A DNA stretch of 64,000 nt, taken from assembly GCA_021736475.1 (NCBI GenBank), contig JAIPFV010000003.1:4724-68723 (forward strand), written 5' to 3'. The notes under the pieces were generated by a model that saw only the letters and a program-made list of their open reading frames with translations, was not told the DNA's origin and did not search any database. The translations under genes were made by a program, and so were the position numbers. This document shows, one piece after another, positions 26,064 to 49,045 of this stretch. The stretch is from Spirochaetia bacterium (GTDB lineage Bacteria > Spirochaetota > Spirochaetia > DSM-16054 > Sediminispirochaetaceae). The stretch's first letter is position 1. Each line of letters starts with the position of its first letter.

Positions 26064-27440
26064 TTATTCGGGGTTGAAGTCCAGCCGTTTGAGCTTGCGG
26101 TGCAGAGTGGCCTCGGCAATCCCCAGCAGCTTGGCGGCTTGTTTCTTGTTGCCCCAGGTCTGATCGAGGGCCCGCTGGATTGCCTGCTGTTCATAGCTCT
26201 CGATCGAAAATTCATCGGATCGTCTTTCGGTAACTGCCGGCGAGTTGCGGACCGCCTCGGGAAGATCGATCATCTGGATTTGGGGCGGCTCGGCAAAGAC
26301 GATTGCCCGGCGAACAACGTTCTGCAGTTCGCGTACATTTCCTGGCCAGGCATACTGCAGCAGTCGTGTCATTGCGGAATCTTCAATTCTGGTTACTTCC
26401 GGGGAATCAGTCAGGTGAAGTGAAAGAAAGTGCTTGAGCAGCGGTTCTATATCTTCAGTTCTCTCTCTGAGCGCCGGTACGTTGATGGTAATGGTATTGA
26501 ACCGGTAGTACAGGTCTTCACGGAATTCGCCCTGTTCGACGGCTTGCTGCAGGTTGCGGTTGGTGGCAGCCAGTATACGTATGTTTACTGAAACCGGTGT
26601 AGTGGCACCGATTGGTCGCACCTCCTGCTCCTGTACCAGCCGCAGCAGTTTGGTTTGCAGTGCCAGCGGCAGCTCGCCGATTTCATCGAAAAAAACTGTA
26701 CCGCCGTCGGCCTCTTGGATTAGACCGTTGTGTGAATGAGTGGCGCCGGTAAATGAGCCTTTCCGGTATCCGAACAGTTCGCTTTCGATGACCGAACCGT
26801 TGATGGCCCCGCAGTCTACCACTGTAAAGGGGTTGTCCTTGCGTTCGCTATGGGCGTGGATCGCGCGAGCCACCAGCTCTTTGCCGGTGCCGGTTTCGCC
26901 CTGAATAAGCACATTCATGTCGGTGTGTCCCACGTTTACGATAGTTTTCTTGAGCCTGAGCATTGGCTCCGAGTTGCCTATTAGTCCGTCAAAGTGAAAA
27001 TGCTCGTTTGTCCGCCGCCGCAGGTCGGACATTTCCTGCTCCAGCTCCCACGTACGTTTTACCTGCGACACTTTGTTTACCAGCAGTTCGTTAGTAATCG
27101 GTTTTTCAATCAGATCTTTGGCTCCCTGTTTTATGGCCTTTACCGCGTCTCGGATGGTTGCGCGTCCGGTGACCATATATACTGGAATACCGGGATTGCG
27201 ATGCTGTATCATCTCCAGAACCTGGTGGCCATTGCAGCGGGGCATGCAGAGGTCAAGCAGAATGAGGTCCGGCGGAGTGTCGTTCAGTGCTCCGAGGGCT
27301 TGCTTGGCATCCTGGAAACACCTCAGGTTGTCTACTATCTTTCTAAGAGTGCGTTTATATACACTCAGACTTTCTTCTTCGTCATCAATACAGAATACGG
27401 TGAATCCGCTGTATATGTTTTCATTGCTTTTTTCTTTCAT
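26064..27440 (-). CDS. Sigma-54-dependent response regulator (NtrC family EBP)
   Basis: REC 'VFCIDDEEE...[11 protein letters not shown]'; '[17 protein letters not shown]', '[15 protein letters not shown]', '[12 protein letters not shown]'; HTH '[21 protein letters not shown]'. Confidence 0.92.
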
Positions 27441-27643
27441 AGTAAGACAATACCCCTGCTAATAACATTAATCAAGATGATTTTTGTTTAAAGAAAACAG
27501 TATTCATTTAGCGGAACAGCTGTAGTATGAGGTTCGAGGAGATGAATGTTACCTTTGAATCCCTCCTATATGAGGTCGTGATTATCCACGCAGTCAGTCG
27601 GTAAGATTCCTTCCACTTTCTCCCCATCTGTTTCCGATCACGG

Positions 27644-27700
27644 CGTACATTGTCCGTACAGTGTCCGAAAACGCGACTCCTACTGTACGATTACCGTACA
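27644..27700. promoter_or_regulatory. Candidate EBP upstream activating sites (CGTACA repeats; palindrome TGTACG-N5-CGTACA)
   Basis: CGTACA at 27644 and 27655 (11-nt phasing: CGTACATTGTC/CGTACAGTGTC) and the perfect palindrome TGTACGATTACCGTACA at 27684-27700, about 170-220 nt upstream of the sigma-54 promoter at 27867. Confidence 0.35.
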
Positions 27701-27866
27701 CCCGAGGCGTCCTTCCGGCGCTTGGGCGTGTCGTCTTATACTGTACCACCCACTGGAAGTGTACTCTCGCAAGAATTATATTGCGGAGATAAATTGTTTA
27801 TGTATAATAAATTGAAAACATCTTTGTACAGGCTTAGTCTAAAAATTAGCCTGCGAAACGGAAACT

Positions 27867-27881
27867 TGGCACGTTACTTGC
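27867..27881 (+). promoter_or_regulatory. Sigma-54 promoter TGGCAC-N5-TTGC
   Basis: 'CTTGGCACGTTACTTGCT'; perfect -24 GG / -12 GC elements and spacing; about 195 nt upstream of ATG 28076. Confidence 0.7.
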
Positions 27882-28075
27882 TAAATATTGGGTACATTGG
27901 ATCTTTGAAACAGTACCAGGGACGGAATACAGCGGAACAAAGAATTGCAGAATCGGCGGCATTCGAAAGGCAATTCCCGAATGTTATTCGGGAGTAAAAA
28001 AAAGGAGCCTACCGAACGGTAGAACTCCCTATCACAACTTTTATAAATTTACTGCATTGTATGGAGGATGTCAAT

Positions 28076-28636
28076 ATGAAGATTCGAATAATTCACATAG
28101 CTCTCGTAGTTCTTTTCGTGTTCAGCTCTGTGGTCGTTGGGTTTGCAGACCCGCCTTCTTCGCTTAGCACCGAGGATTCGATCACTACCGATATCAGTCT
28201 GAGTGTCGAGCCGCAGATCATCGCCCACAAGGGATCTGACATCGTTATGAGCGTGCCTGCCCTCGATGCCTCCTCAGAAGAAGATGAGGGTGGAGCTCTG
28301 GCCTTTGGGTCGGGAAGCATCGGCTACTTTGACAGCAACGCACCGACGACCTTCTCCTTCGAGGCGAACGCGCTGAGCAACAGTGAAAGCGATGGCGACG
28401 ACGTGATGACCACCCGCTACGCGGCGAACTTCTCCGGCTACGACGGAAAAGAGGACGAAGGGTACGCGAGTGGTGACGTGAACAGCGCAAATCTCGATGA
28501 CCTTGACGGGTCTGTAAACATCACTCCCCGCAGCGGACGTATCGACGTAGCGCTCGATGTGGAAGCCGACGTGGAGTGGGGTGACGATGCAGGGCTTTAC
28601 GGCTCGCAGTTCGTCATGACCGCCACAGTCAACTAA
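28076..28636 (+). CDS. Sec-exported protein, paralogue A of an unrecognised family (candidate major structural subunit)
   Basis: GGAGGA RBS; signal peptide 'MKIRIIHIALVVLFVFSSVVVGFA'; shares 'G.G.(I/L)GYFDSN', 'TRY', 'D(V/I)EADV(E/D)W...Y...FV(M/L)TAT' blocks with 30533-31657 and 31662-32420. Confidence 0.75.
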   Translation: MKIRIIHIALVVLFVFSSVVVGFADPPSSLSTEDSITTDISLSVEPQIIAHKGSDIVMSVPALDASSEEDEGGALAFGSGSIGYFDSNAPTTFSFEANALSNSESDGDDVMTTRYAANFSGYDGKEDEGYASGDVNSANLDDLDGSVNITPRSGRIDVALDVEADVEWGDDAGLYGSQFVMTATVN

Positions 28637-28796
28637 GAGGTAGAGAGAAAGCATTTAGCTAAAAACGGACAGAGAGGAGGGGCCCGGGCCCATGCCGACC
28701 CGGGACTCCTCGAACCGATGCCGCCGACTGCAGTGGGGTTCCGTAGTTCGTTCCCATAAGGTACCTGGTAAAATGAGAAGAGCAAGAAGAGCGAAA

Positions 28797-28828
28797 GGCG
28801 CCCCTCAACGTGGGCGCCAATCGTTTTT
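28797..28828 (+). terminator. Rho-independent terminator candidate after paralogue A
   Basis: GGCGCCC-ctcaacgt-GGGCGCC (7-bp all-GC stem) followed by aatcgTTTTT. Confidence 0.5.
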
Positions 28829-28849
28829 CGTAGTGAGGAGAAAACACAC

Positions 28850-30463
28850 ATGAATAGCGTCTACGAGGCCATGACCGATGCTGTTTTCATTGCCGACATC
28901 GAAACAAAGAAGCTGCTCTTCTGCAATAGCCAAGCCGAGACAATGACTGGACGAAGCAGAGATGAGCTCATTGGCATGCAAGCGGAGGACCTGCACCCGA
29001 CACAATTTGCGGAGCCAATCCGGCAGGTATTCGAAGAGAGTAAGGTCAGACTTCCTTCGGTAGAAGATTCCGAAGTTCTCACCGCCAGCGGACGGCGAAT
29101 TCCCGTATTTATAAGCACCTCATTCATCAGATTCGAAGGTAGAGGGGCGTTGCTCGGCATATTCAGGGACATAAGCTCATGGAACGAGGCAGATCTCGAG
29201 CGGAGACGTTTGTGGGCTGCCATCGAGCAGCTCTCCGAGGCGGTGCTCATCACCGACGCCGAAGCCTCTATTATCTACGCAAATCATGCCTTTTTCCGCA
29301 TGACCGGTTACGGGGAGGAGGAAGTCATAGGAATGATTCCGGGCTTCTTGAACAGCGGCGAACAGAACCAAGAGACAGTTGAGGAGATGTGGAAAACTCT
29401 CAGGGCAGGCAGGAAGTGGAAGGGGGAGTTCGTCAACCGGAAGAAGGATGGAACGCACTACATCGACGAGACCGCTATTTCCCCGGTATTCGATCGGGGC
29501 GGAGAACTCGTCAACTACGTCTCGGTGAAACGGGATGTGACCGGCCGCAAAGCCGAGGAGGATCGCAGGAGATTAGAAAGAGAGGAAATGGAGGATGTGG
29601 TGGAGCTCCGGCTGCAAGAGCTCAGGGAGGCTTACGACACCATCACCCTGCAGGAGAAAATGGCCTCCCTAGGCCGCCTCACGGCGGGCATCGCTCACGA
29701 ACTGAACAACCCGCTGCAGTTGGTGAGGATGAATGCAGATATTCTCGCCTACCAGATCCGGGAGATGAAGAGCCTCTTCTCATCGTATCGGGATTATATT
29801 ATGGAACGTTCATGCCCGGATGCCACCTCTTCTCTGCCTGAGGATCTGCAGCGGCTGGAGGAGGAAAGCGATTTCGATACTCGAGATGAGGAGATGAGAA
29901 AGGCATACGAGGTATTGATGAATGGTGTGCAGAGGATGGAGCGAATTATATCGAACGTGCAGAAGACCTTCTCAATCGAGAAGACGAGCGAACAGCAGGA
30001 ATGGGATCTTAACATCGGTATACGTGAGATCGTCGAAATCCTCTACAACGAGTATAAGTACGGGACAAAAGTAGAGGTGTACAGTGAGGGGGTGCTTCCT
30101 CTGATGTGTAACCGGCAGGAAATACAGCAGGTACTGATAAGCCTCATGTCCAACGCTTTTGAGGCGATCCGGAGCATTGGAAAGAGCACGGGTACGGGGA
30201 GCGGAGAAATCGTCATTCGCAGTTGGAGCGGCGAAGAGACGGTCTCGTTCTCGATAAGCGACAACAGTTCCGGCATAGGGCCCGAAGAGCGGAAGAAGGT
30301 CTTCGAGCCGTTCTACACCACCCGCTCGCAGAAAAGTAACACAGGCTTCGGTTTGAGCCTTGTCTACGAGATCGTGGTTAACAGACACGGAGGCACCATA
30401 GCCTTCGAGAACTCGGAGAGTGGCGGAACGTTGGTAACGGTGAGCCTGCCGCGGGGTGTATAA
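28850..30463 (+). CDS. Cytoplasmic double-PAS sensor histidine kinase
   Basis: Two PAS modules ('IADIETKKLLFCNSQAETMTG', 'ITDAEASIIYANHAFFRMTGY...GKWKGEFVNRKKDGT'), H-box 'LTAGIAHELNNPLQ', 'DNSSGIGPE', 'GFGLSLVYEIV'; no TM segment. Confidence 0.9.
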   Translation: MNSVYEAMTDAVFIADIETKKLLFCNSQAETMTGRSRDELIGMQAEDLHPTQFAEPIRQVFEESKVRLPSVEDSEVLTASGRRIPVFISTSFIRFEGRGALLGIFRDISSWNEADLERRRLWAAIEQLSEAVLITDAEASIIYANHAFFRMTGYGEEEVIGMIPGFLNSGEQNQETVEEMWKTLRAGRKWKGEFVNRKKDGTHYIDETAISPVFDRGGELVNYVSVKRDVTGRKAEEDRRRLEREEMEDVVELRLQELREAYDTITLQEKMASLGRLTAGIAHELNNPLQLVRMNADILAYQIREMKSLFSSYRDYIMERSCPDATSSLPEDLQRLEEESDFDTRDEEMRKAYEVLMNGVQRMERIISNVQKTFSIEKTSEQQEWDLNIGIREIVEILYNEYKYGTKVEVYSEGVLPLMCNRQEIQQVLISLMSNAFEAIRSIGKSTGTGSGEIVIRSWSGEETVSFSISDNSSGIGPEERKKVFEPFYTTRSQKSNTGFGLSLVYEIVVNRHGGTIAFENSESGGTLVTVSLPRGV

Positions 30464-30493
30464 AATCTGTACAGCTTAAGCATACCCTTCGCT

Positions 30494-30508
30494 TGGCACA
30501 CTTATTGC
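30494..30508 (+). promoter_or_regulatory. Sigma-54 promoter TGGCAC-N5-TTGC
   Basis: 'CTTGGCACACTTATTGCAAT' lies about 25 nt upstream of ATG 30533; 18 nt are identical to the minus-strand promoter at 37133-37147. Confidence 0.7.
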
Positions 30509-30532
30509 AATAAGAATATTAAGGGATTAGTG

Positions 30533-31657
30533 ATGGAAAATATGAATACAGGAACGAACATACACCACGTACTGATGCACATACTCAATCTCTTTTTACT
30601 CCTCCCCCTCGCGCTCTCCGCTGGGGAAGTGACGGCGGGAATACGGATGGGATTACAGTCGGGAATCGTGGCGCATCCCACGGGGGAGGATATTGTAATG
30701 GAGGTTTCCCCGTTTACTAGCGCAGAGACGGATGTGACGGCCCGCGGTAACGGCTTTCTGGGCTACTTTGACAGCAATGTGCGCACCACTATCACTTACC
30801 AAGGCAACAGCCTGCATCACGGCGATGAGCCCCACACCGATGTAATGTCGACTCGCTACCACGTCCGTCTCTACGGACATGGCTCGGGGGATGTGAACTA
30901 CAGGAGCCCCACAGTGGAAGATGAGCGGATCGAATGGCTTCCGGGCTCGTCGGTAGTGGAACCGAATACGGGAAAAATCTACGTCGACCTCGAGGTGGAA
31001 GCGGATGTCGACTGGAGTCATGGCATAGGACAATATGAGGCGGTATTCGTGCTCACGGCTACTAAGAGCGGCGGAATGAGTGAGGAAGACATTGAACGGT
31101 ATAGCAGTGTCTTCAGTGAATCTAACCAGCCTCACGATGTGCTCATCGCCCCGGAGACCTCTCCGAATCTTTCCCTCTCCGAAGACGTGGAGATCATGAC
31201 TACCTTTATTGAGGAGACCGCCGGCTACCGGAACACGATCGGCTACTTCCTTTTCCCCGAGGAACCGTTGGTGGATATCGGGGAGATAGAGACGAGCTCG
31301 AAGGTACTCTATGAAAACGCCTCCATGGAAAATTCGGGGGAAGAGCTGATACCGGGAGACAGTAGAGACCTTGGCCTATTCGAATCGGAGTTTGACTTGG
31401 GATTCTGGATTGCCAGCGACGGCTATAAGAGGACGAACCCGGAGGTGTACTACAGTATCGATGAGTACAATGCAGACGGACTGCGGCACGTGTCGATTTT
31501 CTCGGACCTCGCACAGAATCGCATCGTCGTCGGATTCGAGGATCTTCCCGGAGGTGGCGACAAGGATTACAACGACGTGCTCATAGGGCTGGATATCTAC
31601 CCGTTTTCAGCTGTGGATCTCGACAACATACCCGACATATCGGAGCTAAGGGAGTGA
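30533..31657 (+). CDS. Sec-exported protein, paralogue B, with C-terminal DUF4114-like domain
   Basis: Signal 'LNLFLLLPLALSA'; family blocks 'GNGFLGYFDSN', 'VMSTRYHVRLYGHGSG', 'VDLEVEADVDWSHGIGQYEAVFVLTATKSG'; C-terminus 'VVGFEDLPGGGDKDYNDVLIGLD' is the DUF4114 signature. Confidence 0.8.
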   Translation: MENMNTGTNIHHVLMHILNLFLLLPLALSAGEVTAGIRMGLQSGIVAHPTGEDIVMEVSPFTSAETDVTARGNGFLGYFDSNVRTTITYQGNSLHHGDEPHTDVMSTRYHVRLYGHGSGDVNYRSPTVEDERIEWLPGSSVVEPNTGKIYVDLEVEADVDWSHGIGQYEAVFVLTATKSGGMSEEDIERYSSVFSESNQPHDVLIAPETSPNLSLSEDVEIMTTFIEETAGYRNTIGYFLFPEEPLVDIGEIETSSKVLYENASMENSGEELIPGDSRDLGLFESEFDLGFWIASDGYKRTNPEVYYSIDEYNADGLRHVSIFSDLAQNRIVVGFEDLPGGGDKDYNDVLIGLDIYPFSAVDLDNIPDISELRE

Positions 31658-31661
31658 GAGA

Positions 31662-32420
31662 ATGATAGACACGGGAACGAAGGGATGTTTTGTGTTGCTT
31701 TACAGCCTCATCCTCATCTTTGGCATACTCTTTGTCCTCCGCGGCGAGCAGGTGAAGACGGGCGTCCACATGGGAGTGCCCGCGGGTATCGTCGCGCATC
31801 CATCGGGAGAGGAGATCATCCTTCATTCGCCTCCACTGTCCGAGAGTGAAGAGGGTGAGGTGACAGCCAAGGGCGAAGGGTATATAGGCTACTTCGACAG
31901 CAATGCCTGCACCATCATCAGCTACGAGGCGAACTGCCTACACCATGGCAAAGATAAGGACAAGGAGGAGATGATCGACCTGCTTCCGACCCGCTACAGC
32001 GTGACCCTCTATGGGCACGGATCGTCGCCGATTCACTACCACAGCCCTACCGTATTGAAGGTGGAGAAGGAAACGCTTCCCGGCTCATCGGTTGTGGACC
32101 CTCATACGGGGAAGATCCACGCGGAGTTGGACATCGAGGCTGACGTAGACTGGAGTCACGACTCTGGAGAGTACGAGGCCGCCTTCGTTCTCACCGCCAC
32201 CGAGAGCGGAGGAATATGCACGGAGGAGATAGCCTACTACAGGAGCCGCTTCGAAGAGGGTCGTATACCCGTGGATCTGGTTAGATTCGCCACTCCAGAT
32301 AACGACAGCTATGTGCTCGATTCCGAAAGGGCATCCTTCGGAGGTGCAGCGGACGAGACGAACATCAAGAGCGAAATCGGCTACCGCCTCCCCGAAAGGC
32401 CGGAAGATGGCGGTGAGTAG
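31662..32420 (+). CDS. Sec-exported protein, paralogue C (B-like, ends where the DUF4114 domain of B begins)
   Basis: 'GEGYIGYFDSN', 'LLPTRYSVTLYGHGSS', 'AELDIEADVDWSHDSGEYEAAFVLTATESGG'; the tail 'SEIGYRLPERPED' aligns to 'NTIGYFLFPEEP' of B. Confidence 0.8.
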   Translation: MIDTGTKGCFVLLYSLILIFGILFVLRGEQVKTGVHMGVPAGIVAHPSGEEIILHSPPLSESEEGEVTAKGEGYIGYFDSNACTIISYEANCLHHGKDKDKEEMIDLLPTRYSVTLYGHGSSPIHYHSPTVLKVEKETLPGSSVVDPHTGKIHAELDIEADVDWSHDSGEYEAAFVLTATESGGICTEEIAYYRSRFEEGRIPVDLVRFATPDNDSYVLDSERASFGGAADETNIKSEIGYRLPERPEDGGE

Positions 32421-32517
32421 AATGATAAGCAGTGATACCGAGACAGTGAAAACGAAGGAGTTGGTAAGAAGAATGTACGCATTGATCAATTGCACAGAAT
32501 ATCGCATCGAAGAGACC

Positions 32518-33732
32518 ATGGAGCGGAGCTCCGGCGGCAGGCTGCAGAGACTGCCCCTCCTTCCTCTGCTTGTTTTTATGTTGATGACCACAGGTCTGGA
32601 TGCCTTCCAGGTTACTCCTGCCTCGAAGGCGATCAGCATGAACCAGGGAACGGAGCAGGTCGTTACCATTCGTCTTGTCGGCACGAAGGATGAAAGGGTT
32701 CTTATCTACCTTGGCGACTACTTCATCGACAGGAGGGGGACCGTCGTCTTCGAGGCCGGACCCGAGATGAACGCGCCCTCGGCAAAAGGGTGGATATCTC
32801 CGATTACTGCAGCTCAGGAGGTCACCTATTTCGACCCGGCGGAGCAGGGTATGATAACAAGAAACGCCCCGGTAGTGGAATTGCAGCAGGGGGAGGTCAA
32901 GGAAGTCTCCTTCAGGGTCGCTCCGCCAGCGGATGCCCAGGGCGAGTACTACGCCACCCTCCACTTCCGTGATCTCACCACATCGACACAGGATGATGAT
33001 ACGCCGCAGGTAGCGATCTACTTTGCCGTGGCGGCCCGCCTGAGCATCGCCATCAAGGGAAGCTTCGTCCCGAGACGCGAGGGAGGCGTGCTTTCCGACG
33101 CGGGGAGCATCCACCAGGGAGAGGGTGCTACCCGCATAAGCACTTCCTTCGAGAACAGTGGCAACGTGCACTTGAATGTGACCGCACTGACGTACATCAG
33201 GCGGGCGAAGGACAATCGGGTCTTTGCAGAGCTGACGCTCACTCCCGCAGGTTCCCAGCCTGATGGGAGCGCATTCATCCTGCCCGGTGGGGTGAGGGAT
33301 TTCGAGGGCTATCTGAGGCGACCCCTTCCTCCAGGCGAGTATGTAGCCGAAACAGTCTACGATTACGGCTCCTACCTGAGGCCTAAAAATAGAGTAGAGT
33401 TTACCGTGGAGAGGGACACGAATGCGGAGTTCATGACCTTCGACTACGAGCCGAAGGAGCTGAAGGTCGTCGGTGCGCCGGGGAGCACCTCGATACGGAA
33501 GATCACGGTCTACAATATGGGTGCAGAGCCGCTGGAACTGCGAATAGACGCTGATGAAGGGCTGCTGCGCATCCTTACTCCCCAGCTTATCATTCCCGAG
33601 GGAAGCTCTCGCAACGTCGGCATCATGTTGCGCGTCCCCGAGGATGCCTCACGAACAAAGATCAATCTCACCCCATCTAGGGGGAGCCCTGCGGACCTGC
33701 TGGTGTTGATCAACGAAACGGGGGAGGACTGA
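32518..33732 (+). CDS. Periplasmic multi-beta-sandwich protein (PapD/MSP- or DUF916-like repeats); chaperone/assembly-factor candidate
   Basis: Signal peptide 'MERSSGGRLQRLPLLPLLVFMLMTTGLDAFQ' (ATG 32518; alternative ATG 32422); three segments with Ig-like strand patterns, e.g. 'ELKVVGAPGSTSIRKITVYNMGAEPLELRID...IIPEGSSRNVGIMLRVP'. Confidence 0.7.
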   Translation: MERSSGGRLQRLPLLPLLVFMLMTTGLDAFQVTPASKAISMNQGTEQVVTIRLVGTKDERVLIYLGDYFIDRRGTVVFEAGPEMNAPSAKGWISPITAAQEVTYFDPAEQGMITRNAPVVELQQGEVKEVSFRVAPPADAQGEYYATLHFRDLTTSTQDDDTPQVAIYFAVAARLSIAIKGSFVPRREGGVLSDAGSIHQGEGATRISTSFENSGNVHLNVTALTYIRRAKDNRVFAELTLTPAGSQPDGSAFILPGGVRDFEGYLRRPLPPGEYVAETVYDYGSYLRPKNRVEFTVERDTNAEFMTFDYEPKELKVVGAPGSTSIRKITVYNMGAEPLELRIDADEGLLRILTPQLIIPEGSSRNVGIMLRVPEDASRTKINLTPSRGSPADLLVLINETGED

Positions 33733-33733
33733 G

Positions 33734-35002
33734 ATGCGGGGTCGCTGCCTGCAATGTGCCCTCCGGTCCGGTCTCCGAGGCAGTCTTCCGATTGCACTGC
33801 TTGCGGCGATGCTGCTGTCAGGCTGTGCTACGCCGATGGAGCAAACCGTCGATACGCCCGATCTCGTGATCTCCCGGCGCTCTGCGGACTCGCCAGATCC
33901 TCTGAAGCAGGAGCTGGTAGCCCGAGGCGCAAAGGATTCGGAAAGGGAAGCGGGGCCGTCGGTCAGCGGCAACTACTTCGACACCGACCTGCGGGCGGTG
34001 CTAATGGAGCTTTCAATGAAGACCGGGATTAATATAATTCCCGACCAGACAGTCAGAGGCATGATTACTGTCAGCTTCGAAAAGATGCCCCTCGAGAAGG
34101 TCCTGCGCATGATCCTCTTTCCCGGGGGTTACTCATTCAAAAAGGAGGAGGGCTACTATCTCGTTGGCAGCGTCGACCCTAAGAATCCTCACACTTCCCG
34201 CCTCATTAGCACCGAGATGCTTCGCACCAACTACGACGCGAAGGAGGTTATCGAGAGCCTTCCTCAGATGTATCGCCCCTTCGTCACCATGGCCGACGGC
34301 ATAGCAAACCGCCTCGTCATAAATGCCCCGGAGCATGTGATGTGGAAAATCAAGGAGTCCATAGTAGCCATGGACGAGCCGAGGAAACTTATCTCCATCG
34401 ACGTGGTCGTGGCGGAGATGAGTTACTCGCAGGCGAACTCACTCGGGGTGGACTGGGACGATCCCATTGTCTCTGTCGACGGGGCAGGCGGTCTTTTCAT
34501 CGAGAACGGCGGCGGTGCGTTCACCGGCAGCCTTACCTCAGAGTTTGTCCTCTCACTCTCGGCGATGTCGAAGAACGGGAGTATCGAAATACGGGCCAAT
34601 CCGAAGATCGTCACGCTCGACGGAGAGACTGCTAAGGTGCAGATCATCGACGAGTATTACATCCCCATCATCGGTAACATAGATGACCTCTCTTCGAGCG
34701 ATGTGAGGAAGATCGACGCCGGCATCAGCCTCATCGTGCGGCCAAGGTTGACGCGGAACGGTGAGATCCTCATCGACATAGAACCTTCGGTGAGCAACCA
34801 GAGCGGCGTATCCATGCAGAGCGCTATGCCCATAATCAACACTCGTCAGGCTAAGACGACCGTCAAGCTCAAGAGTGGAGAAACCTTCATCCTCGGCGGA
34901 CTAATTCAGGAGAGCACACAAAACGAACGCAAGAATGCCGCCCGTAGCACCGCGCAAAGCAAGAAGGAGCTGGTGATATTTATTACCCCCCGGGTTCTGT
35001 GA
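33734..35002 (+). CDS. Secretin-family outer-membrane channel, lipoprotein, short form
   Basis: Lipobox 'LLSGCATP'; N0/STN-like 'NYFDTDLRAVLMELSMKTGINIIPDQTVRGMITVSFEKMPLEKVLRMIL'; secretin domain 'IEIRANPKIVTLDGETAKVQI', 'INTRQAKTTVKLKSGETFILGGLIQ', 'ELVIFITPRVL'. Confidence 0.88.
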   Translation: MRGRCLQCALRSGLRGSLPIALLAAMLLSGCATPMEQTVDTPDLVISRRSADSPDPLKQELVARGAKDSEREAGPSVSGNYFDTDLRAVLMELSMKTGINIIPDQTVRGMITVSFEKMPLEKVLRMILFPGGYSFKKEEGYYLVGSVDPKNPHTSRLISTEMLRTNYDAKEVIESLPQMYRPFVTMADGIANRLVINAPEHVMWKIKESIVAMDEPRKLISIDVVVAEMSYSQANSLGVDWDDPIVSVDGAGGLFIENGGGAFTGSLTSEFVLSLSAMSKNGSIEIRANPKIVTLDGETAKVQIIDEYYIPIIGNIDDLSSSDVRKIDAGISLIVRPRLTRNGEILIDIEPSVSNQSGVSMQSAMPIINTRQAKTTVKLKSGETFILGGLIQESTQNERKNAARSTAQSKKELVIFITPRVL

Positions 35003-36508
35003 CTAATCCAGCCCGTAGTCGCGCATCTTCTTGTAGAGGGTCGATCGGGTAATCCCGAGTATTTCTGCAGCTCGTGCCTTGTTGAGACCTGTGATCTCCA
35101 GAATATGTTGGATGTGCCGCTTCTCGACCTCTCTCATGCTGAGCTCGACGGTGTCGGAGAATTCTGCCTCAGATGCCTTTTCACCGCCGCCTATTCTCTC
35201 CGCTTCCGGATTACCTGATGTGTCCTCGTAACCCAGGGGAACCCGGTAGCCCCTGGTCGTCTCTTCGGGGTCGAAGAGATTTTCTGTGTCGATGACATCG
35301 GAATCGCTTAGGTAGTAGGCTTTCTCCACGATGTTCTGCAGTTGCCGAATGTTGCCCGGCCAGCCATTGCTGCTTCGTTTTAGCTTCTCCAATGACACGG
35401 GTGAAATTGACCTTGTAAGCCCGTTGTTTTTTTTGGCTAGTTTGAGGAGGAACATCGATATCAACAGGGAGAAATCGTCGCCCCGCTCACGCAGGGGAGG
35501 AACGAAAAGGGTGAAGACCTGCAGCCGGAAGTAGAGGTCTGCCCGGAATCGCCTCTCCTCGACGGCTTTCCAGAGGTCGATGTTTGAGGCGGCAATGATG
35601 CGCACATCGGCGCTGCGGGTCACCGTGCTGCCTACCCGCGAGTAGGTCCCCTCCTGGAGGAAACGCAGCAGGCGAGTCTGCATCGCCGGCGTCAGCTCGG
35701 CCACCTCGTCGAGAAAGACCGTCCCGCCGTCCGAGGCCTCGAAGACCCCCTTGGCGGTGTCTACCGCCCCGGTAAAGGATCCCTTCTCGTGGCCGAAGAG
35801 GTGGCTGTCGATAAGGGACTCCTGAATCGCCCCGCAGTTGACGGCGGTGAAGGTCATGTCGCTGCGATTGCTGCGGTGGTAGATTGCGTGGGCAACCAGT
35901 TCCTTTCCCGTGCCCGTCTCTCCCTGGATGAGCACCGGGGCTGAGGTCGGGGCGATCTTCAGGATCTGCCGGTAGAGCCGATGCATCGCCGGACTCTCGC
36001 CTACGAAGAGGTCGAAGTGGAACTGGAGTCCCTCGTCCCATACCGCCGGTACAGGTGCCTCTGCCGGCTCCTTCCTTCGCAGCCTGGCTATTTCGATAAG
36101 CTCATCAACGGTGGAGATGAGGCCCTGCTGGTCCACCGGTTTCTGTATGACCCGCACGGCGGAAGTGCTGTTTATGAGCTCGATGACGAGGTCGAGATTC
36201 ATGTAGGCCGAGAGCATGGCGCAGACCGTTTCGGGGTACAGCTCCTTCACCTTCTTAAGCAGCGACTCGCCATTCTCTCCAGGCATGTTCTGGTCGGTAA
36301 TGAGCACGTCGATGCGCTGCGCCTCGAGAGTGGAAAGTGCCTCTTCGCTACTATGGGCAGTAAATAGCTCGATGGAAGGAGTATTCCTGAAGAGCATTTG
36401 TATCGTGGTGAGGAAATCGATCTCGTCATCGACGAAGAGCAACTGTGTGGCAGCCTGCTGCTGCTTTTTATTAGCAGTCGCCTGAGGCGAATTCTCTGCG
36501 TGGTCCAT
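35003..36508 (-). CDS. Sigma-54-dependent response regulator (NtrC family EBP)
   Basis: REC 'LLFVDDEIDFL...LITDQNMPGENG'; '[17 protein letters not shown]', 'DSHLFGHEKGSFTGA', 'WPGNIRQLQNIV'; HTH 'ARAAEILGITRSTLYKKMRDYGL'. Confidence 0.92.
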   Translation of the reverse strand: MDHAENSPQATANKKQQQAATQLLFVDDEIDFLTTIQMLFRNTPSIELFTAHSSEEALSTLEAQRIDVLITDQNMPGENGESLLKKVKELYPETVCAMLSAYMNLDLVIELINSTSAVRVIQKPVDQQGLISTVDELIEIARLRRKEPAEAPVPAVWDEGLQFHFDLFVGESPAMHRLYRQILKIAPTSAPVLIQGETGTGKELVAHAIYHRSNRSDMTFTAVNCGAIQESLIDSHLFGHEKGSFTGAVDTAKGVFEASDGGTVFLDEVAELTPAMQTRLLRFLQEGTYSRVGSTVTRSADVRIIAASNIDLWKAVEERRFRADLYFRLQVFTLFVPPLRERGDDFSLLISMFLLKLAKKNNGLTRSISPVSLEKLKRSSNGWPGNIRQLQNIVEKAYYLSDSDVIDTENLFDPEETTRGYRVPLGYEDTSGNPEAERIGGGEKASEAEFSDTVELSMREVEKRHIQHILEITGLNKARAAEILGITRSTLYKKMRDYGLD

Positions 36509-36558
36509 TTGCTTATCCTCTTACGTGTATTTGCATTTGTACATGCAGGAAACAATTA

Positions 36559-36573
36559 GCAAGTACTGTGCCA
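36559..36573 (-). promoter_or_regulatory. Sigma-54 promoter TGGCAC-N5-TTGC (minus strand)
   Basis: The reverse complement reads 'CTTGGCACAGTACTTGCT'; it lies about 50 nt upstream of the EBP ATG at 36508. Confidence 0.65.
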
Positions 36574-36717
36574 AGTGAACCATTTTCGAGCCAAGAAAAG
36601 CCGTCTGTGACTAAACCTGTATACCTCTCCGGGCTTTCTGAGGTGGTGTGCGAAGGAGCCCAGCCGGTTTCTCTCTCCAGTGCGGCTATCAAAATGATAG
36701 AATAACTCAAGTTAGTA

Positions 36718-37086
36718 TCAATTTGAAAAACTCCGGCGCCTAGGCAAACGTTGAACCTGCGGCTTACAAGCAGCACATAGGAGAGGACCACCGAGGCCAT
36801 GAGATTTCGCCGGAAGCGGTAGCGAACGTCCATCGAGGCGTAGCGGCGCAGCCAGGTTCCGCACGAAGTCGATAGGCTCCTCATGCAGCTCCCGGTAACT
36901 TTGCGTGAGCTCACGGGCCAGGTCAAAGACCGCATCCCGAACAAACTCGATTTCCCTCTCAGTCCCAGGGCCCTGACCGACCACATTGTCGTCCCCGCCT
37001 GCCTCGTCCGCCGCAGCGGTCAGAACCATATCCGAAAACGCGAATATAAAGAACAGCAGCATCGCCGTAATCCAGAAGTTTTTCAT
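36718..37086 (-). CDS. Small exported protein, unknown function
   Basis: ATG 37086 preceded by a GGAGG RBS; 'MKNFWITAMLLFFIFAFSDMVLTAAA' signal-like N-terminus; sits directly downstream of the promoter at 37133-37147. The C-terminal third is low-complexity, so the 3' end is uncertain. Confidence 0.45.
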   Translation of the reverse strand: MKNFWITAMLLFFIFAFSDMVLTAAADEAGGDDNVVGQGPGTEREIEFVRDAVFDLARELTQSYRELHEEPIDFVRNLAAPLRLDGRSLPLPAKSHGLGGPLLCAACKPQVQRLPRRRSFSN

Positions 37087-37132
37087 TCCATACCTCCAAA
37101 AAAAAATTATTGAATGAGTCGAAAAACTAATT

Positions 37133-37147
37133 GCAATAAGTGTGCCA
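37133..37147 (-). promoter_or_regulatory. Sigma-54 promoter TGGCAC-N5-TTGC (minus strand)
   Basis: The reverse complement reads 'TGGCACACTTATTGCAAT', identical over 18 nt to the plus-strand promoter at 30494. Confidence 0.65.
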
Positions 37148-37387: not shown

Positions 37388-37402
37388 TGGCACGGGCTTT
37401 GC
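37388..37402 (+). promoter_or_regulatory. Sigma-54 promoter TGGCAC-N5-TTGC
   Basis: 'CTTGGCACGGGCTTTGCT' lies about 230 nt upstream of ATG 37633; it is divergent from the 37133-37147 promoter. Confidence 0.65.
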
Positions 37403-37632
37403 TATACAGGGATAGTACATCGAACCGGGCGTCGGCAGAGTGTGTTTCGGCCGCCTGAGCAACGAACCGGTTTTTTTATGCGCATGAGCGGCGCCGCCGC
37501 CCGTGTAGCCGTAATGCCGTCGTGAGCGATCAAAACGATCGCCGCAGGCGGAATGGGAGTGCTGTGCGCTCACCGCAGTCCTGCTCTCATCACTTTTTCA
37601 ATTACAAAAAAACCGGAGGAAGCACTACCACA

Positions 37633-38622
37633 ATGAGCGGAAAAGTATACAGGAAAAGAACAAAAAAAGTTGCCCTGGTCGGCGTTGGAAGAATATCCAA
37701 TCGTCACATAGAGGCCATAGCGTCCGAACCCGGGGTAGAAGTAACCCTGGTATGCGACACCTACGAGGATCTGGCTCGAAAGAAGGCGGGAGAACTCGGG
37801 GTTCCCTACATCACCGACTACCGGCAGATAAGCAAGGTGGCGCCGGAAGTCGACATCGCGGCGGTGCTCACCCCTTCGGGAAATCACCCTACCCATGCAG
37901 CGGAGATCGCCGAGACGACTGATGTGCCGTACATCCTCCTGGAGAAACCCATAAGCCTCACCCTGCGGGAGGCATACGACCTGTTCAACCGGATCGACAG
38001 GGCAGGGAAGGTTCTCCTTCCCGTGTTTCAGAACCGCTACAACCTTCTCGTCTCCTACATAAAGCAGCTCATCGACAGCGGTGTTCTCGGGACGATCTAC
38101 CAGTTCAACTGTAACGTCTTCTGGAACAGGAACAACGGGTACTTTCGCAACAGCTGGCACGGTACTCGGGAGCTCGACGGCGGGGTGCTCTACACCCAGG
38201 CTAGCCATTACGTCGACATGCTCCACTTTTTTTTCGGCGAGCTGGTCGAGAGCAAGGGACTCTGCTCGTCGCTGCGGGGCATGGATGTGCACGACACCGT
38301 CTCGGCGGTCTGCAGGTTTGCCGGCGGTACGGTCGGCTCCCTCAACGCAACCGTCAGCGTGTTCCGAGAGAACTATCTCACCGAGTTCACCCTCATCGCC
38401 GAGAAGGGGACCATTCGCCTCTCGGGAACGAACCTCAACACCATTGCGAACTGGGACGTGGCGGGGATAGAGAAGCCGGACCTGGATTTTTCCATCAACC
38501 ATCAATACGGCCTGGGCCACAACACACTCTACTCCTACATCGCCGGAGAGAAGTGGGCAAAGTTTCCCACACGGCAAGAGATCATATCGGGAATACGGAT
38601 GATGGAGCAGCTGAGCTATTAA
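37633..38622 (+). CDS. wbpB: Gfo/Idh/MocA oxidoreductase, WbpB-like UDP-GlcNAcA 3-dehydrogenase
   Basis: ATG 37633 after GGAGG; 'VALVGVGRISNRH', 'EKPISLTL', 'VFQNRYN', 'WHGTRELDGGVLYTQASHYVDML' parallel the WbpB motifs. Confidence 0.8.
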   Translation: MSGKVYRKRTKKVALVGVGRISNRHIEAIASEPGVEVTLVCDTYEDLARKKAGELGVPYITDYRQISKVAPEVDIAAVLTPSGNHPTHAAEIAETTDVPYILLEKPISLTLREAYDLFNRIDRAGKVLLPVFQNRYNLLVSYIKQLIDSGVLGTIYQFNCNVFWNRNNGYFRNSWHGTRELDGGVLYTQASHYVDMLHFFFGELVESKGLCSSLRGMDVHDTVSAVCRFAGGTVGSLNATVSVFRENYLTEFTLIAEKGTIRLSGTNLNTIANWDVAGIEKPDLDFSINHQYGLGHNTLYSYIAGEKWAKFPTRQEIISGIRMMEQLSY

Positions 38623-38675
38623 ACGTATCGCCGTACAGGCAGGTCGGCCACAACACAAAGGGAGGTGGATACAAT

Positions 38676-39848
38676 ATGAAATTCGTAGACCTAGGACTGC
38701 AGTACTATGCCTACAAGAACGAGATAGATGAGGCGCTGCGAGAGGTCGTCGAGTCCGGCTCGTTCATCAACGGGCCGCAGATTGCCGCTCTCGAGAAAGA
38801 GCTCGCCGAGTTCAGCGGGGCGCGCTACGCCGTAGCCTGCAGCTCCGGTACCGACGCCCTTATGCTGGCTATGTTTGCTTTGGGTGTGAAACCAGGAGAC
38901 GAGATCATCGTACCGGCCTTCTCTTTCATCGCAACCGCGTCGATGGTCTCCTTTCTCGGTGCCATCCCCGTATTTGTAGACGTGGGGCCGGAGAGTTATA
39001 CCATGGATCCTGAGAGGATCGAGGAGAAGATAAGCGAACGGACGAAGGGCATTATTCCCGTTTCCCTCTTCGGGCAGTGCGCCAGGCTCGAGGAGATCGA
39101 GGCCATAGCACGCCGCAACGGACTTTTTGTCCTCGAAGACGGCGCACAGTCCTTCGGGGCTGTCAGGGGAATCGTCGACGGGCCGAGTCACATCGAGCGA
39201 TGCCGGTCCTGCTCCTGCACCGACAGCGACATCGCCGTCACCTCCTTCTTTCCTGCCAAGCCTCTCGGCGGCTACGGGGACGGGGGAGCGGTCTTTACCA
39301 ACGACGCGCAGACTGCCGAGACCCTCCGGAGACTGCGCAACCACGGGCAGGAGAGCCGCTACCGGCACGAGATTATCGGACTAAACGCCCGGATGGACAG
39401 CCTGCAGGCGGCAGTTCTTCTAGTGAAGCTACGCCACTTCTCCGTGGAGATCGAGCGACGTCGCAACGCTGCAGCTATCTACCAGGCCTGCCTCAGCGGG
39501 CTGAGGCAGGTGGAGACGCCGATGCAGGATATACTCAACGAATCAACCTGGGCACAGTATACAATTCGTGTTCCCTACCGCGATAAGGTCCGAGAGGAGC
39601 TCCTGCGGCGAGGAATCCCGAGCGCTGTGCACTATCCTTTGCCTCTGCCTATGCAGAAGGCTTTCGGCGGTTCAGGCCAGAATGTGCGGCGCGGCTACCG
39701 CGTCTCCGAGGAGCTCTCGATGAGCGTTCTTTCCCTGCCCATGCACGCCTTTCTCACCGAAGCCGAGCAGTGTGAGGTCTGCGTGGCCCTCGACGAGGTG
39801 CTCGCCGGCCTGGGCGAAGATGCGATGGCTGAGGTGTCCTATGGATGA
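38676..39848 (+). CDS. wbpE: DegT/DnrJ/EryC1 aminotransferase, WbpE-like
   Basis: 'GAQSFGA', '[22 protein letters not shown]', '[32 protein letters not shown]'; ATG 38676. Confidence 0.88.
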
Positions 39849-41925: not shown

Positions 41926-41926
41926 G

Positions 41927-42487: not shown

Positions 42488-42490
42488 GAG

Positions 42491-46556: not shown

Positions 46557-46599
46557 GCTTTTTGTGTTAACCCAAATAGCTTTTCAGTATAGAGGTGTT

Positions 46600-49030: not shown

Positions 49031-49045
49031 GTTGAAAAATTTATT

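What the first reader, a model, noticed from the sequence alone, without database searches (positions are those of the whole stretch)
27441..37147. Sigma-54-wired 'orphan secretin' locus: three paralogous Sec-exported proteins, a multi-Ig periplasmic protein and a lipoprotein secretin, with no ATPase, platform or pilin genes
**Gene content.** Two NtrC-type EBP genes (26064-27440 and 35003-36508) flank the locus.
- A monocistronic gene for a 186-aa signal-peptide protein (28076-28636) has its own TGGCAC-N5-TTGC promoter and a GC-stem/T-tract terminator.
- A cytoplasmic double-PAS histidine kinase follows (28850-30463).
- A second sigma-54 promoter (30494) leads, with gaps of 100 nt or less, into two paralogues of the first protein, a 404-aa periplasmic beta-sandwich protein and a 422-aa lipoprotein secretin.

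**What is missing.** The ORF track shows no traffic ATPase, inner-membrane platform, prepilin-type N-terminus, prepilin peptidase, usher or pilotin in or next to the locus.

**Why it is unusual.** Secretins are established only as OM channels of T2SS, T3SS, type IV/Tad pili, competence systems and filamentous phage. I recognise the cargo-like proteins here from none of those systems.

**Possible analogy.** A highly expressed structural gene under sigma-54, an EBP and a kinase mirrors the pilA/PilS-PilR arrangement. This suggests a regulated surface fibre or adhesin exported by a minimal chaperone-plus-secretin route. That mechanism is inference only.
Basis: partly seen in the sequence, partly recalled or inferred. 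Interest (0 to 1): 0.88.

Follow-up and report, generated by a model that had tools for sequence, protein, structure and literature searches.

The report
Secretin paired with WxLIP-like surface-protein cassette
A spirochaete operon pairs an outer-membrane secretin pore with a relative of the Gram-positive WxL-interacting surface protein and a few small secreted proteins, and the same pore-plus-partner pair recurs in many phyla without any secretion motor nearby, so it may be an undescribed route for putting adhesive proteins on the cell surface.

Summary
All genes, both sigma-54 promoters, the terminator and the lipoprotein secretin lie where stated. No T2SS, T4P or Tad ATPase, platform or prepilin is present anywhere in the 64 kb.

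The main new result concerns the 404-aa "multi-Ig" protein (D). It belongs to a rare family: 201 cluster representatives among 1.84 billion proteins. This family is homologous to the Gram-positive WxL-interacting protein WxLIP (DUF916/DUF3324); a family profile matches the solved EfmWxLIP1 structure at E = 8e-14.

In 17 independent loci a D-like gene is followed directly by a short pIV-like secretin. These loci come from Spirochaetota, Omnitrophota, a Bacillota-labelled MAG and unclassified metagenomes. One to five small signal-peptide proteins lie upstream, and no ATPase is nearby. The linked secretins form one clade, separate from PilQ- and GspD-named proteins.

The three paralogues are acidic jelly-roll proteins known only from spirochaetes. 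One carries a DUF4114 domain, described in the literature as a Ca-dependent lectin-like domain.

My best reading is a diderm counterpart of WxL surface-protein clusters. D would bind the small subunits in the periplasm, and the dedicated secretin would pass them to the surface under sigma-54 control. Export, independence from an ATPase, and fibre formation are all inferred. A motor encoded elsewhere in the genome was not excluded.

The parts
26064..27440 (-). NtrC-type sigma-54 enhancer-binding response regulator (REC + AAA+ + HTH_8), divergent from gene A
   Evidence: Pfam PF00158 at E = 4.8e-68, plus PF00072 and PF02954. An EBP also flanks the orthologous cassettes L001-L003.
27867..27881 (+). 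Sigma-54 -24/-12 element TGGCACGTTACTTGC upstream of gene A
   Evidence: Exact match. Equivalent GG-N10-GC elements lie upstream of the A orthologues in L001, L002 and L003.
28076..28636 (+). Gene A: 186-aa signal-peptide protein. The mature protein is 162 aa, very acidic (pI 4.05) and Cys-free, with a jelly-roll beta-sandwich fold. It is the candidate major subunit or cargo.
   Evidence: AF2 pLDDT is 78.4 and the model is all-beta. Foldseek finds only generic jelly rolls. The family has 7 proteins among 5.8 billion, all from spirochaetes.
28797..28828 (+). Intrinsic-terminator-like hairpin plus T-tract after gene A
   Evidence: 7 G-C pairs, tail AATCGTTTTT.
28850..30463 (+). Probably soluble double-PAS histidine kinase (no hydrophobic segment seen in its translation). 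It is inserted between A and B in this genome only.
   Evidence: Pfam PAS_9 at E = 6e-33, plus HisKA and HATPase_c. No kinase lies between A and B in L001-L003.
30494..30508 (+). Second sigma-54 -24/-12 element TGGCACACTTATTGC, 22 nt upstream of B
   Evidence: The identical 15-mer recurs at 37133-37147(-).
30530..31657 (+). Gene B: paralogue core plus a C-terminal DUF4114 domain, described in the literature as a Ca-binding, lectin-like domain. It is the candidate adhesin or large subunit.
   Evidence: PF13448 at E = 6.4e-11. Orthologues of 369-370 aa carrying DUF4114 occur in L001-L003. The role proposed for DUF4114 in Myxococcus PilY1.1 comes from PMC9109919.
31662..32420 (+). Gene C: third paralogue (252 aa), specific to this genome
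   Evidence: It is absent from L001-L003.
32518..33732 (+). Gene D: 404-aa signal-peptide, all-beta, multi-domain protein. It is a diderm homologue of the WxL-interacting protein (DUF916/DUF3324) with an extra PapD/ASH-like Ig domain and no C-terminal TM helix. It is the proposed periplasmic subunit-binding partner of the secretin.
   Evidence: The family profile A7 matches PDB EfmWxLIP1 9i1y at E = 8e-14 and 2qsv at E = 7e-7. PF06030 is hit in 26 of 61 family members. The family has 201 representatives at E <= 1e-3.
33734..35002 (+). Short lipoprotein secretin (N0 - one N domain - secretin domain; lipobox LLSGC). Its start codon lies 1 nt after the D stop codon.
   Evidence: PF00263 at E = 2.8e-28. 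PDB PilQ matches at E = 1e-20, including the N0 domain. phrog_1012 (M13 pIV) matches at E = 7.8e-36 over 28-400 of 403 profile positions. It scores below every NCBIfam secretin cut-off. It falls in the D-linked clade.
35003..36508 (-). Second NtrC-type EBP, convergent with the secretin. It has its own sigma-54 element at 36559-36573(-).
   Evidence: PF00158 at E = 1e-65. Promoter. The convergent EBP is conserved in L001 and L003.
36721..37147 (-). Small signal-peptide ORF (122 aa, 37086 to 36721). Its sigma-54 element (37133-37147) is identical to the one in front of B. It is a possible co-regulated accessory gene but is not conserved in the orthologous loci.
   Evidence: No Pfam or PHROG hit.

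Best explanation
The locus is a sigma-54-controlled member of a previously undescribed, multi-phylum gene cassette. It looks like a diderm counterpart of the Gram-positive WxL surface-protein cluster, fitted with its own outer-membrane secretin.

**Shown**
- The conserved core is a WxLIP-like multi-Ig protein (D) encoded directly before a short pIV-like secretin, often with translational coupling.
- One to five small signal-peptide beta-sandwich proteins are encoded upstream. Here these are A, B (with a DUF4114 domain) and C.

**Inferred mechanism**
1. The PAS kinase and the REC-EBPs switch on the two sigma-54 promoters.
2. All five products cross the inner membrane by Sec. The secretin is lipidated and reaches the outer membrane through the lipoprotein pathway without a separate pilotin.
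3. In the periplasm, D binds the small subunits by beta-strand complementation. This is what AlphaFold predicts for WxLIP and WxL.
4. D delivers the subunits to the short secretin.
5. The subunits emerge as a surface complex or short fibre. A would be the abundant unit, and B would present its DUF4114 domain to glycans, possibly the exopolysaccharide made by the neighbouring sigma-54-driven cluster.
6. No dedicated ATPase takes part. Binding or assembly energy would drive export, as in chaperone-usher pili and curli.
For: **Anatomy.** The genes, promoters and terminator are confirmed.

**Orthologous cassettes.** Three more spirochaete genomes carry A-B(DUF4114)-D-secretin plus an EBP, in different flanking contexts. 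A sigma-54-type element upstream of A is conserved in them.

**D is WxLIP-like.**
- The family profile matches EfmWxLIP1 at E = 8e-14 across both domains.
- 26 of 61 members hit PF06030 and 3 hit PF11797.

**D-secretin linkage.**
- It occurs in 17 independent loci, with gaps of -4 to +62 nt in 16 of them.
- The loci include an Omnitrophota MAG and a Bacillota-labelled MAG.
- All linked secretins fall in one neighbour-joining clade, apart from PilQ- and GspD-named proteins.

**A monoderm-type relative.** L028 has a TM-anchored D-like protein, small proteins and no secretin. This fits the idea that the secretin is the diderm-specific addition.

**No motor nearby.**
- Nothing was found in the 64 kb.
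- Nothing appears in the precomputed Pfam tables of the flanks in L001-L008 and L015-L019.

**Strand complementation.** It is predicted for WxLIP-WxL pairs (PMC10599100).

**DUF4114.** The literature describes it as a Ca-dependent sugar-binding adhesion domain (PMC9109919).

**Subunit features.** Unrelated small-protein families share an alternating-hydrophobic N-terminal strand and a C-terminal aG-x-Y-x3-h-T-h strand (sequences).
Against: - No experiment or expression data exists. Export, surface location and the D-subunit interaction are all inferred.
- D could not be modelled (pLDDT 41), and no complex prediction was possible.
- The small proteins show no detectable WxL domain: no Pfam hit even at E <= 10.
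- The small-protein families are not alignable between cassette subtypes. 'WxL-like' therefore holds only for D.
- The rest of the genome could not be inventoried, so a T2SS, T4P or Tad motor elsewhere may serve this secretin.
- Every characterised secretin works with an inner-membrane ATPase machine.
- One secretin of the clade (L015) lacks D.
- The link to the exopolysaccharide cluster is seen only in this genome.
Confidence: 0.5

Rival explanations
1. The secretin is the outer-membrane component of a T2SS, T4P or Tad machine whose ATPase, platform and (pseudo)pilins are encoded elsewhere in the genome. A, B and C are its substrates, and D is a substrate-specific periplasmic adaptor or a co-secreted protein.
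For: - All characterised secretins work with such machines (established knowledge).
- Secretin genes can lie apart from the ATPase genes, as with pilMNOPQ and pilBCD in Pseudomonas (from memory).
- The secretin's best PDB and NCBIfam matches are PilQ and GspD.
- I could not inventory the rest of the genome.
Against: - In 17 loci from several phyla the conserved neighbour is D, never GspC, PilP, PilMNO or RcpC, and no T4F gene lies within up to 10 kb.
- The linked secretins form their own clade.
- They score far below the PilQ, GspD, MshL and HofQ cut-offs.
- With only N0 and one N domain, the periplasmic part is short compared with T2SS and T4P secretins.
Confidence: 0.27
2. D and the secretin form an envelope structure that exports nothing, for example a peptidoglycan-tethered outer-membrane pore or an uptake channel. 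The small proteins would be periplasmic, or outer-membrane-associated partners or ligand binders.
For: - The WxLIP N-domain is annotated as peptidoglycan-binding (PF06030; PMC10599100).
- Some secretins of the clade carry a C-terminal TonB_C-like domain (P0014, P0021, P0032, P0042; also L012, read from its sequence).
- Some loci add a second secretin-like or OMP-like gene (L013, L016, L011, L017).
- The competence secretins HofQ and PilQ act in uptake (established knowledge).
Against: - B carries an adhesin-type DUF4114 domain, which is expected outside the cell.
- The small proteins vary greatly between lineages, as is typical of exposed surface proteins.
- The Gram-positive homologous clusters encode surface-displayed proteins (PMC10599100).
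Confidence: 0.13
3. The secretin is a remnant of a filamentous-phage (pIV-type) export gene and sits next to unrelated secreted-protein genes by chance.
For: The best full-length profile match is phrog_1012, the assembly protein IV of M13 (E = 7.8e-36 over 28-400 of 403 positions). The secretin shares pIV's size and its N0-N-secretin architecture.
Against: - No other gene of the locus hits any PHROG.
- There is no pI/Zot ATPase, coat protein or replication gene.
- The D-secretin pair is conserved, and often translationally coupled, in 17 loci with different flanks.
Confidence: 0.03

Closest known systems
WxL surface-protein clusters of Firmicutes (WxLIP = DUF916/DUF3324, plus a small WxL and a large WxL protein)
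   Same: - D is a sequence homologue of WxLIP across both of its Ig-like domains.
- The cluster logic matches: one WxLIP-like protein, one 'small' protein that is only the core domain (A), and one 'large' protein made of the core plus a binding domain (B).
- All products carry signal peptides.
   Different: - The host is diderm, and a dedicated secretin follows D.
- D lacks the C-terminal TM helix and has a third Ig-like domain.
- The small proteins have no detectable WxL domain.
- The binding domain of B is C-terminal, whereas in large WxL proteins the WxL domain is C-terminal.
- No LPXTG partner is present.
Chaperone-usher pili
   Same: The proposed logic is the same: Sec-exported beta-sandwich subunits, a periplasmic multi-Ig protein that completes or caps them by strand insertion, an outer-membrane pore, and no ATP. 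D has weak PapD/ASH/MSP-like matches.
   Different: - There is no usher (PF00577), and no PapD_N or PapD_C hit.
- The pore is a secretin.
- The subunit fold is predicted to be a jelly roll, not an incomplete Ig fold.
- Polymerisation has not been shown.
Curli / type VIII secretion (CsgG lipoprotein channel, CsgE/F, CsgA/B)
   Same: It also has a lipoprotein outer-membrane channel, a periplasmic accessory protein, major and minor Sec-exported subunits, and no ATPase. It shows that ATP-independent export through an oligomeric outer-membrane channel is possible (established knowledge).
   Different: None of the parts is homologous, and the subunits here are folded beta-sandwiches rather than amyloid repeats.
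Filamentous-phage secretin pIV
   Same: Same length and the same N0 - one N domain - secretin architecture. It gives the best full-length profile match.
   Different: There is no phage context and no pI/pXI ATPase partner. The conserved partner is D instead.
T2SS GspD and T4P PilQ secretins
   Same: They share the secretin and N0 domains.
   Different: - Scores are about one third of the family cut-offs.
- There are fewer N domains and no AMIN domain.
- The secretins fall in a separate clade.
- No GspC-M or PilMNOP neighbours are present.
PilS-PilR / sigma-54 control of pilA
   Same: In both, a kinase, a REC-AAA+ EBP and a sigma-54 promoter drive a small, probably abundant structural gene.
   Different: The resemblance is regulatory only. 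The kinase here appears soluble and has two PAS domains; it does not resemble the membrane protein PilS. Outside the spirochaetes, related cassettes sit next to LuxR- or BTAD-type regulators instead.

Membership tests
Secretin superfamily | C-terminal secretin domain (PF00263) | tested here: met
   E = 2.8e-28, 99 bits against a cut-off of 27.5. PDB PilQ, GspD, RcpA and pIV all match.
Secretin superfamily | N-terminal N0 (STN-like) domain plus at least one N1/N3-type domain | tested here: inconclusive
   N0 and STN matches are below cut-off (21.7 and 21.3 bits). The N0 region does align to PilQ N0 (27.8 bits) and to the pIV profile. Close relatives hit PF03958.
Secretin superfamily | Outer-membrane multimer of 12-15 subunits | not testable with these tools
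   Needs biochemistry or cryo-EM.
Type II secretion system | GspE ATPase, GspF platform, GspC/L/M, and pseudopilins with a prepilin motif, encoded with the secretin | tested here: not met
   None occurs in the 64-kb window. No prepilin motif was found. None appears in the flanks of the related loci. The rest of the genome was not examined.
Type II secretion system | Secretin reaches the GspD family score | tested here: not met
   TIGR02517: 111.7 bits against a cut-off of 351.
Type IV pilus (a, b, MSHA, Com) and Tad | PilB/CpaF ATPase, PilC/TadBC platform, a prepilin or Flp pilin, and a prepilin peptidase | tested here: not met
   Same scans as for the T2SS. The Flp motif search found nothing. 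PilQ scores 115.6 against 284, MshL 68 against 250, and HofQ 65 against 554.
Filamentous phage export module | pIV together with the pI/Zot ATPase and phage coat and replication genes | tested here: not met
   Only the secretin hits a PHROG.
WxL cluster (Firmicutes) | WxLIP protein with DUF916 (PGBD) and DUF3324 (HBD) domains | tested here: met
   Met at family level. Profile A7 matches EfmWxLIP1 at E = 8e-14 with stretches in both domains. PF06030 is hit in 26 of 61 members and PF11797 in 3 of 61. The window protein alone is not significant.
WxL cluster (Firmicutes) | At least two proteins with a WxL domain (PF13731) | tested here: not met
   A, and small proteins of related loci, have no Pfam hit at E <= 10. 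B and C gave no WxL hit at E <= 0.01.
WxL cluster (Firmicutes) | C-terminal TM helix on WxLIP | tested here: not met
   The highest C-terminal hydropathy of the window's D protein (P0008) is 0.43. Only 5 of 153 family members have a C-terminal TM-like segment.
Chaperone-usher pilus | Usher (PF00577), a PapD_N/PapD_C chaperone, and subunits with an incomplete Ig fold | tested here: not met
   No usher or PapD hit. The A model is a jelly roll.
DUF4114 (PF13448) domain proteins | Pfam match above the gathering score, including the GGGDxDYND Ca-type motif | tested here: met
   In B: 43.5 bits against a cut-off of 27. The sequence reads GGGDKDYNDV.
Sigma-54-dependent operon | -24 GG / -12 GC element with correct spacing upstream, plus a cognate EBP | tested here: met
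   By sequence only. Activity was not tested.

The most novel reading that the evidence does not exclude
The D-like protein and the short secretin are the core of a stand-alone, ATPase-independent export or assembly pathway. On this reading it is a new type of secretion or surface-display system in diderm bacteria. A WxLIP-type periplasmic Ig protein would hand variable beta-sandwich subunits to a dedicated secretin. The pathway would be evolutionarily continuous with the WxL clusters of monoderm Firmicutes, with the secretin present only where there is an outer membrane.
Probability: 0.35. Interest if true: 0.92.

Novelty: new variant of a known kind. Interest (0 to 1): 0.8.

Why it matters
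Secretins are textbook parts of ATPase-driven machines: T2SS, T3SS, type IV and Tad pili, competence systems and filamentous phage. This work finds a whole clade of short secretins whose only conserved partner is a WxLIP-like Ig protein, in several phyla.

If that pairing is functional, it would be the first secretin pathway without a cytoplasmic motor. It would also give WxL-type clusters, so far a poorly understood Gram-positive feature, a diderm counterpart. The presence or absence of the secretin would then track the presence or absence of an outer membrane, which bears on the diderm-monoderm transition.

In practical terms, it gives a role to about 200 protein clusters that have no annotation. 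It also points to a cultured host for experiments, Oceanispirochaeta sp. M1, which grows fast on glucose and pyruvate (PMC11129491).

Tried and rejected
1. **AF2 model of D.** From a 4-sequence alignment the model reached only pLDDT 41.5. It was unusable, so I ran no fold search on it.
2. **Foldseek with the A model.** It returned only generic jelly rolls (MAM, C1q/TNF, viral capsids) at TM 0.27-0.41. No family could be assigned, and no pilin or TasA-like hit appeared in the top 50.
3. **Sequence searches with single families.** Pfam, NCBIfam and PDB searches of A and of D's spirochaete-only alignment found nothing. The WxLIP link appeared only after the exhaustive HMM search deepened the D alignment.
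4. **Linking the small-protein families.** hhalign between cassette subtypes gave no convincing homology. The best results were S1-S2 at probability 52% and S2-S5 at 91% over 45 columns. I therefore do not claim a single cargo superfamily.
5. **PEP-CTERM/exosortase idea.** I considered it because of the EBP's similarity to PrsR and the neighbouring polysaccharide genes. I dropped it because the paralogues have no PEP-CTERM tail and the polysaccharide neighbourhood is not conserved in L001-L003.
6. **Filamentous-phage origin.** Rejected on gene context.
7. **Metagenome scans with broad D alignments.** The narrower A6 worked.
8. **Literature searches.** 'Orphan secretin', DUF916 + secretin and secretin + WxL found nothing relevant.

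Full report

Yes. The ORF map and translations give the following genes:
- gene A: 28076-28636, 186 aa, signal peptide
- a histidine kinase: 28850-30463, with no hydrophobic segment evident in its translation
- gene B: 30530-31657, 375 aa
- gene C: 31662-32420, 252 aa
- gene D: 32518-33732, 404 aa from the ATG that precedes a signal peptide
- a secretin: 33734-35002, 422 aa, lipobox LLSGC
- two flanking minus-strand EBP genes: 26064-27440 and 35003-36508

Pfam confirms the domains. The kinase has 2x PAS + HisKA + HATPase_c. Both EBPs have REC + Sigma54_activat + HTH_8. The secretin matches PF00263 at E = 2.8e-28.

A, B and C are true paralogues. They share 36-38% identity and 49 invariant columns over a core of about 160 aa.

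Exact TGGCAC-N5-TTGC elements lie at 27867 and 30494. A G+C-rich hairpin with a T-tract follows A at 28797-28828.

I scanned essentially every ORF of 150 aa or more in the 64 kb against Pfam. I also searched all six frames for prepilin and Flp motifs. No secretion ATPase, platform protein, usher, peptidase or pilin candidate was found.

The flanks are as follows:
- Upstream lie signalling genes.
- Downstream lies a Wzx/Wzy-type polysaccharide cluster.

B carries a C-terminal DUF4114 domain (PF13448, E = 6.4e-11). The kinase and paralogue C are peculiar to this genome.

**2. Who has it?**

The A/B/C family is tiny. A profile search of 5.8 billion proteins found 7 members, all from spirochaete genomes or metagenomes. 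The window itself is a Spirochaetaceae MAG.

Three further genomes carry the same cassette in different surroundings. One of them matches proteins of the cultured Oceanispirochaeta sp. M1. The order there is small paralogue (about 175 aa), DUF4114 paralogue (about 370 aa), a protein of about 400 aa, a secretin of about 415 aa, and an adjacent sigma-54 EBP.

A sigma-54-type GG-N10-GC element upstream of the small-subunit gene is conserved in all three. The core is therefore a four-gene sigma-54 operon. In the window it has been split by an inserted kinase gene and a duplicated promoter.

**3. What is D?**

D alone gave nothing in Pfam, NCBIfam or PDB, and its AF2 model failed (pLDDT 41).

An exhaustive HMM search of 1.84 billion cluster representatives with the spirochaete D alignment gave 201 proteins at E <= 1e-3 and 67 at E <= 1e-10. 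Most are 380-590 aa long.

I aligned 61 of them (A7) and obtained two results:
- Scanned one by one against Pfam, 26 hit WxLIP_PGBD (PF06030, formerly DUF916; best E = 1e-8) and 3 hit WxLIP_HBD (PF11797, formerly DUF3324). Many also hit Ig-like, ASH or Cep192 families.
- The A7 profile matches the solved Enterococcus faecium EfmWxLIP1 structure (9i1y) at E = 8e-14, with stretches in both of its domains. Its third domain matches the PapD/ASH-like protein 2qsv at E = 7e-7.

D is therefore a homologue of the WxL-interacting protein of Firmicutes, with an extra Ig-like domain. It has no C-terminal TM helix; only 5 of 153 family members have one.

According to PMC10599100:
- A WxL cluster typically encodes one WxLIP, a small WxL protein that is only a WxL domain, and a large WxL protein made of a WxL domain plus binding domains.
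- AlphaFold predicts that a WxLIP strand completes the WxL beta-sandwich.

**4. The secretin is not an orphan.**

The closest secretins outside the spirochaete cassette are short proteins of 400-450 aa at 29-34% identity, from WOR-3, Omnitrophota and unclassified metagenomes.

I examined gene neighbourhoods, a scan of species-representative genomes and a metagenome scan. I then searched these loci with my own HMMs for D and the secretin.

In 17 independent loci a D-like gene is followed directly by a secretin. In 16 of them the gap is -4 to +62 nt. Examples are the window (1 nt), L016 (0 nt) and L013, L017 and L018 (4-nt overlap).

Upstream there are always one to five small signal-peptide proteins of 160-315 aa. 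None of these flanks contains a T2SS, T4P or Tad component.

Two exceptions were found:
- L015 has a secretin of this clade without D.
- L028 has a TM-anchored D-like protein of 318 aa with small partner proteins and no secretin. This looks like a monoderm-type version.

A rough neighbour-joining tree, without bootstrap support, puts all D-linked secretins in one clade apart from PilQ- and GspD-named proteins.

The window's secretin scores at about one third of every NCBIfam secretin cut-off. Its best full-length match is the M13 pIV profile (E = 7.8e-36). That match reflects the same minimal architecture of N0, one N domain and the secretin domain. No other gene of the locus has any phage match.

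**5. The small proteins.**

The AF2 model of mature A is fairly confident (pLDDT 78). It is an all-beta jelly roll whose first 30 or so residues have lower confidence.

Foldseek finds only generic jelly rolls at TM 0.27-0.41. There is no pilin and no known T2SS substrate among the hits. A is very acidic (pI 4.05) and has no cysteine.

The small proteins of other cassette subtypes cannot be aligned with A, and none has a WxL domain.

By eye, two features recur in the sequences:
- an alternating-hydrophobic strand right after the signal-peptide cleavage site
- a C-terminal strand of the form aG-x-Y-x3-h-T-h

In strand-exchange systems these are the elements that take part in strand complementation. 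That is a lead, not a test.

The DUF4114 domain of B also occurs in Myxococcus PilY1.1. There it is proposed to be a Ca-dependent, sugar-binding adhesion module (PMC9109919).

**6. Most likely mechanism.**

What is shown:
- a conserved cassette built on a WxLIP-like protein coupled to a short secretin
- sigma-54-type promoters with adjacent EBPs
- signal peptides on all products
- a lipoprotein secretin

What is inferred:
- D binds A, B and C in the periplasm by strand complementation.
- D presents them to the secretin.
- They pass to the cell surface as a complex or short fibre, with A as the bulk unit and B as the glycan-binding unit.
- Binding or assembly energy, not ATP, drives the process, as in chaperone-usher pili and curli.

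My confidence in this full chain is about 0.5.

The main rival, at about 0.27, is that a T2SS, T4P or Tad motor encoded elsewhere serves this secretin. I could not inventory the genome. Against this rival stand the cross-phylum synteny with D, in place of GspC or PilP, and the separate secretin clade.

A non-export structural or uptake role is less likely (about 0.13). A phage remnant is close to excluded (about 0.03).

**7. Comparison and novelty.**

The system works most like a chaperone-usher or curli pathway. Its homologous parts come from two other worlds: the WxLIP of Gram-positive WxL clusters and a pIV-like secretin.

It fails the membership tests for T2SS, T4P/Tad, chaperone-usher pili, phage export and a bona fide WxL cluster (no WxL domains, no TM anchor on D).

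I found no paper that links DUF916/WxLIP with secretins.

I rate it a new variant of a known kind: a diderm, secretin-equipped relative of WxL clusters. There is a substantial chance, about 0.35, that it is a stand-alone, motor-less secretin pathway, which would be categorically new.

Oceanispirochaeta sp. M1 is cultured and fast-growing (PMC11129491), which makes the question directly testable.

Noticed in passing
window 59770-63994 (- strand): A probable diversity-generating retroelement. A reverse transcriptase (61458-62888, RVT_1 at E = 4.6e-14) lies next to an Mtd-like target protein (62774-63994, mtd_2nd at E = 2.9e-14) and a Laminin_G_3 protein (59770-60858). A KaiC-like ATPase lies at 58726-59637.
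   Followed up: no
window 36559-36573(-), 37133-37147(-), 37388-37402(+), 54795-54809(+): Four more exact TGGCAC-N5-TTGC elements. One lies in front of the EBP gene itself, which could mean autoregulation. One lies in front of a 122-aa signal-peptide ORF (36721-37086, -) and is identical in sequence to the promoter of B. One lies in front of the polysaccharide operon, and one in front of 54969-56266. Together they look like a local sigma-54 regulon hub.
   Followed up: partly
window 37522-52725: A Wzx/Wzy-type polysaccharide cluster: GFO/IDH oxidoreductase, DegT aminotransferase, hexapeptide acyltransferase, UDP-sugar dehydrogenase, flippase, Wzy_C, GT4 enzymes and PGA_cap. G+C drops to 0.35-0.43 from about 44 kb. 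This neighbourhood is not conserved in the orthologous cassettes.
   Followed up: partly
window 33734-35002: The public NCBI protein for this secretin (P0012) is 388 aa, so its N-terminus is 34 residues shorter than the ORF. That cuts off the lipoprotein signal peptide (LLSGC).
   Followed up: partly
L002 14388-16771: Two Laminin_G_3/DUF5018-like secreted proteins lie just downstream of the orthologous secretin. Each is preceded by the same sigma-54-like element, TTGGCATGATTATTGCG. They could be additional co-regulated cargo.
   Followed up: no
L013 10624-12438; L016 11260-12936; L011 3969-5288; L017 11249-12076: Some related cassettes add a gene after the secretin. In L013 and L016 it is a second, longer secretin- or STN-like gene (604 and 558 aa). 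In L011 and L017 it is a protein ending in an OMP-type C-terminal Phe (439 and 275 aa). L013 also has an extra two-domain D-like protein (263 aa) and five small proteins.
   Followed up: no
L028 4537-8554: A cluster with a D-like protein (318 aa) that has a C-terminal TM helix, plus small proteins ending ...YTxxHTYT..., and no secretin. It is flanked by LuxR-type regulators. It looks like a monoderm-type relative of the cassette.
   Followed up: partly
P0014, P0021, P0032, P0042 and L012 2708-4348: Several secretins of the D-linked clade carry a TonB_C-like domain (PF03544). In L012 it lies at the C-terminus, judged from the sequence. Its role is unknown.
   Followed up: no
L019, L021, L024 (D-like proteins of about 500 aa): In this subtype D keeps a C-terminal TM helix yet is still followed by a lipoprotein secretin. 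One subtype would therefore have an inner-membrane-anchored D bridging to the outer-membrane pore. P0027, a secretin of the same clade, is labelled Candidatus Portnoybacteria. That is a CPR lineage, generally thought to lack an outer membrane (from memory).
   Followed up: no
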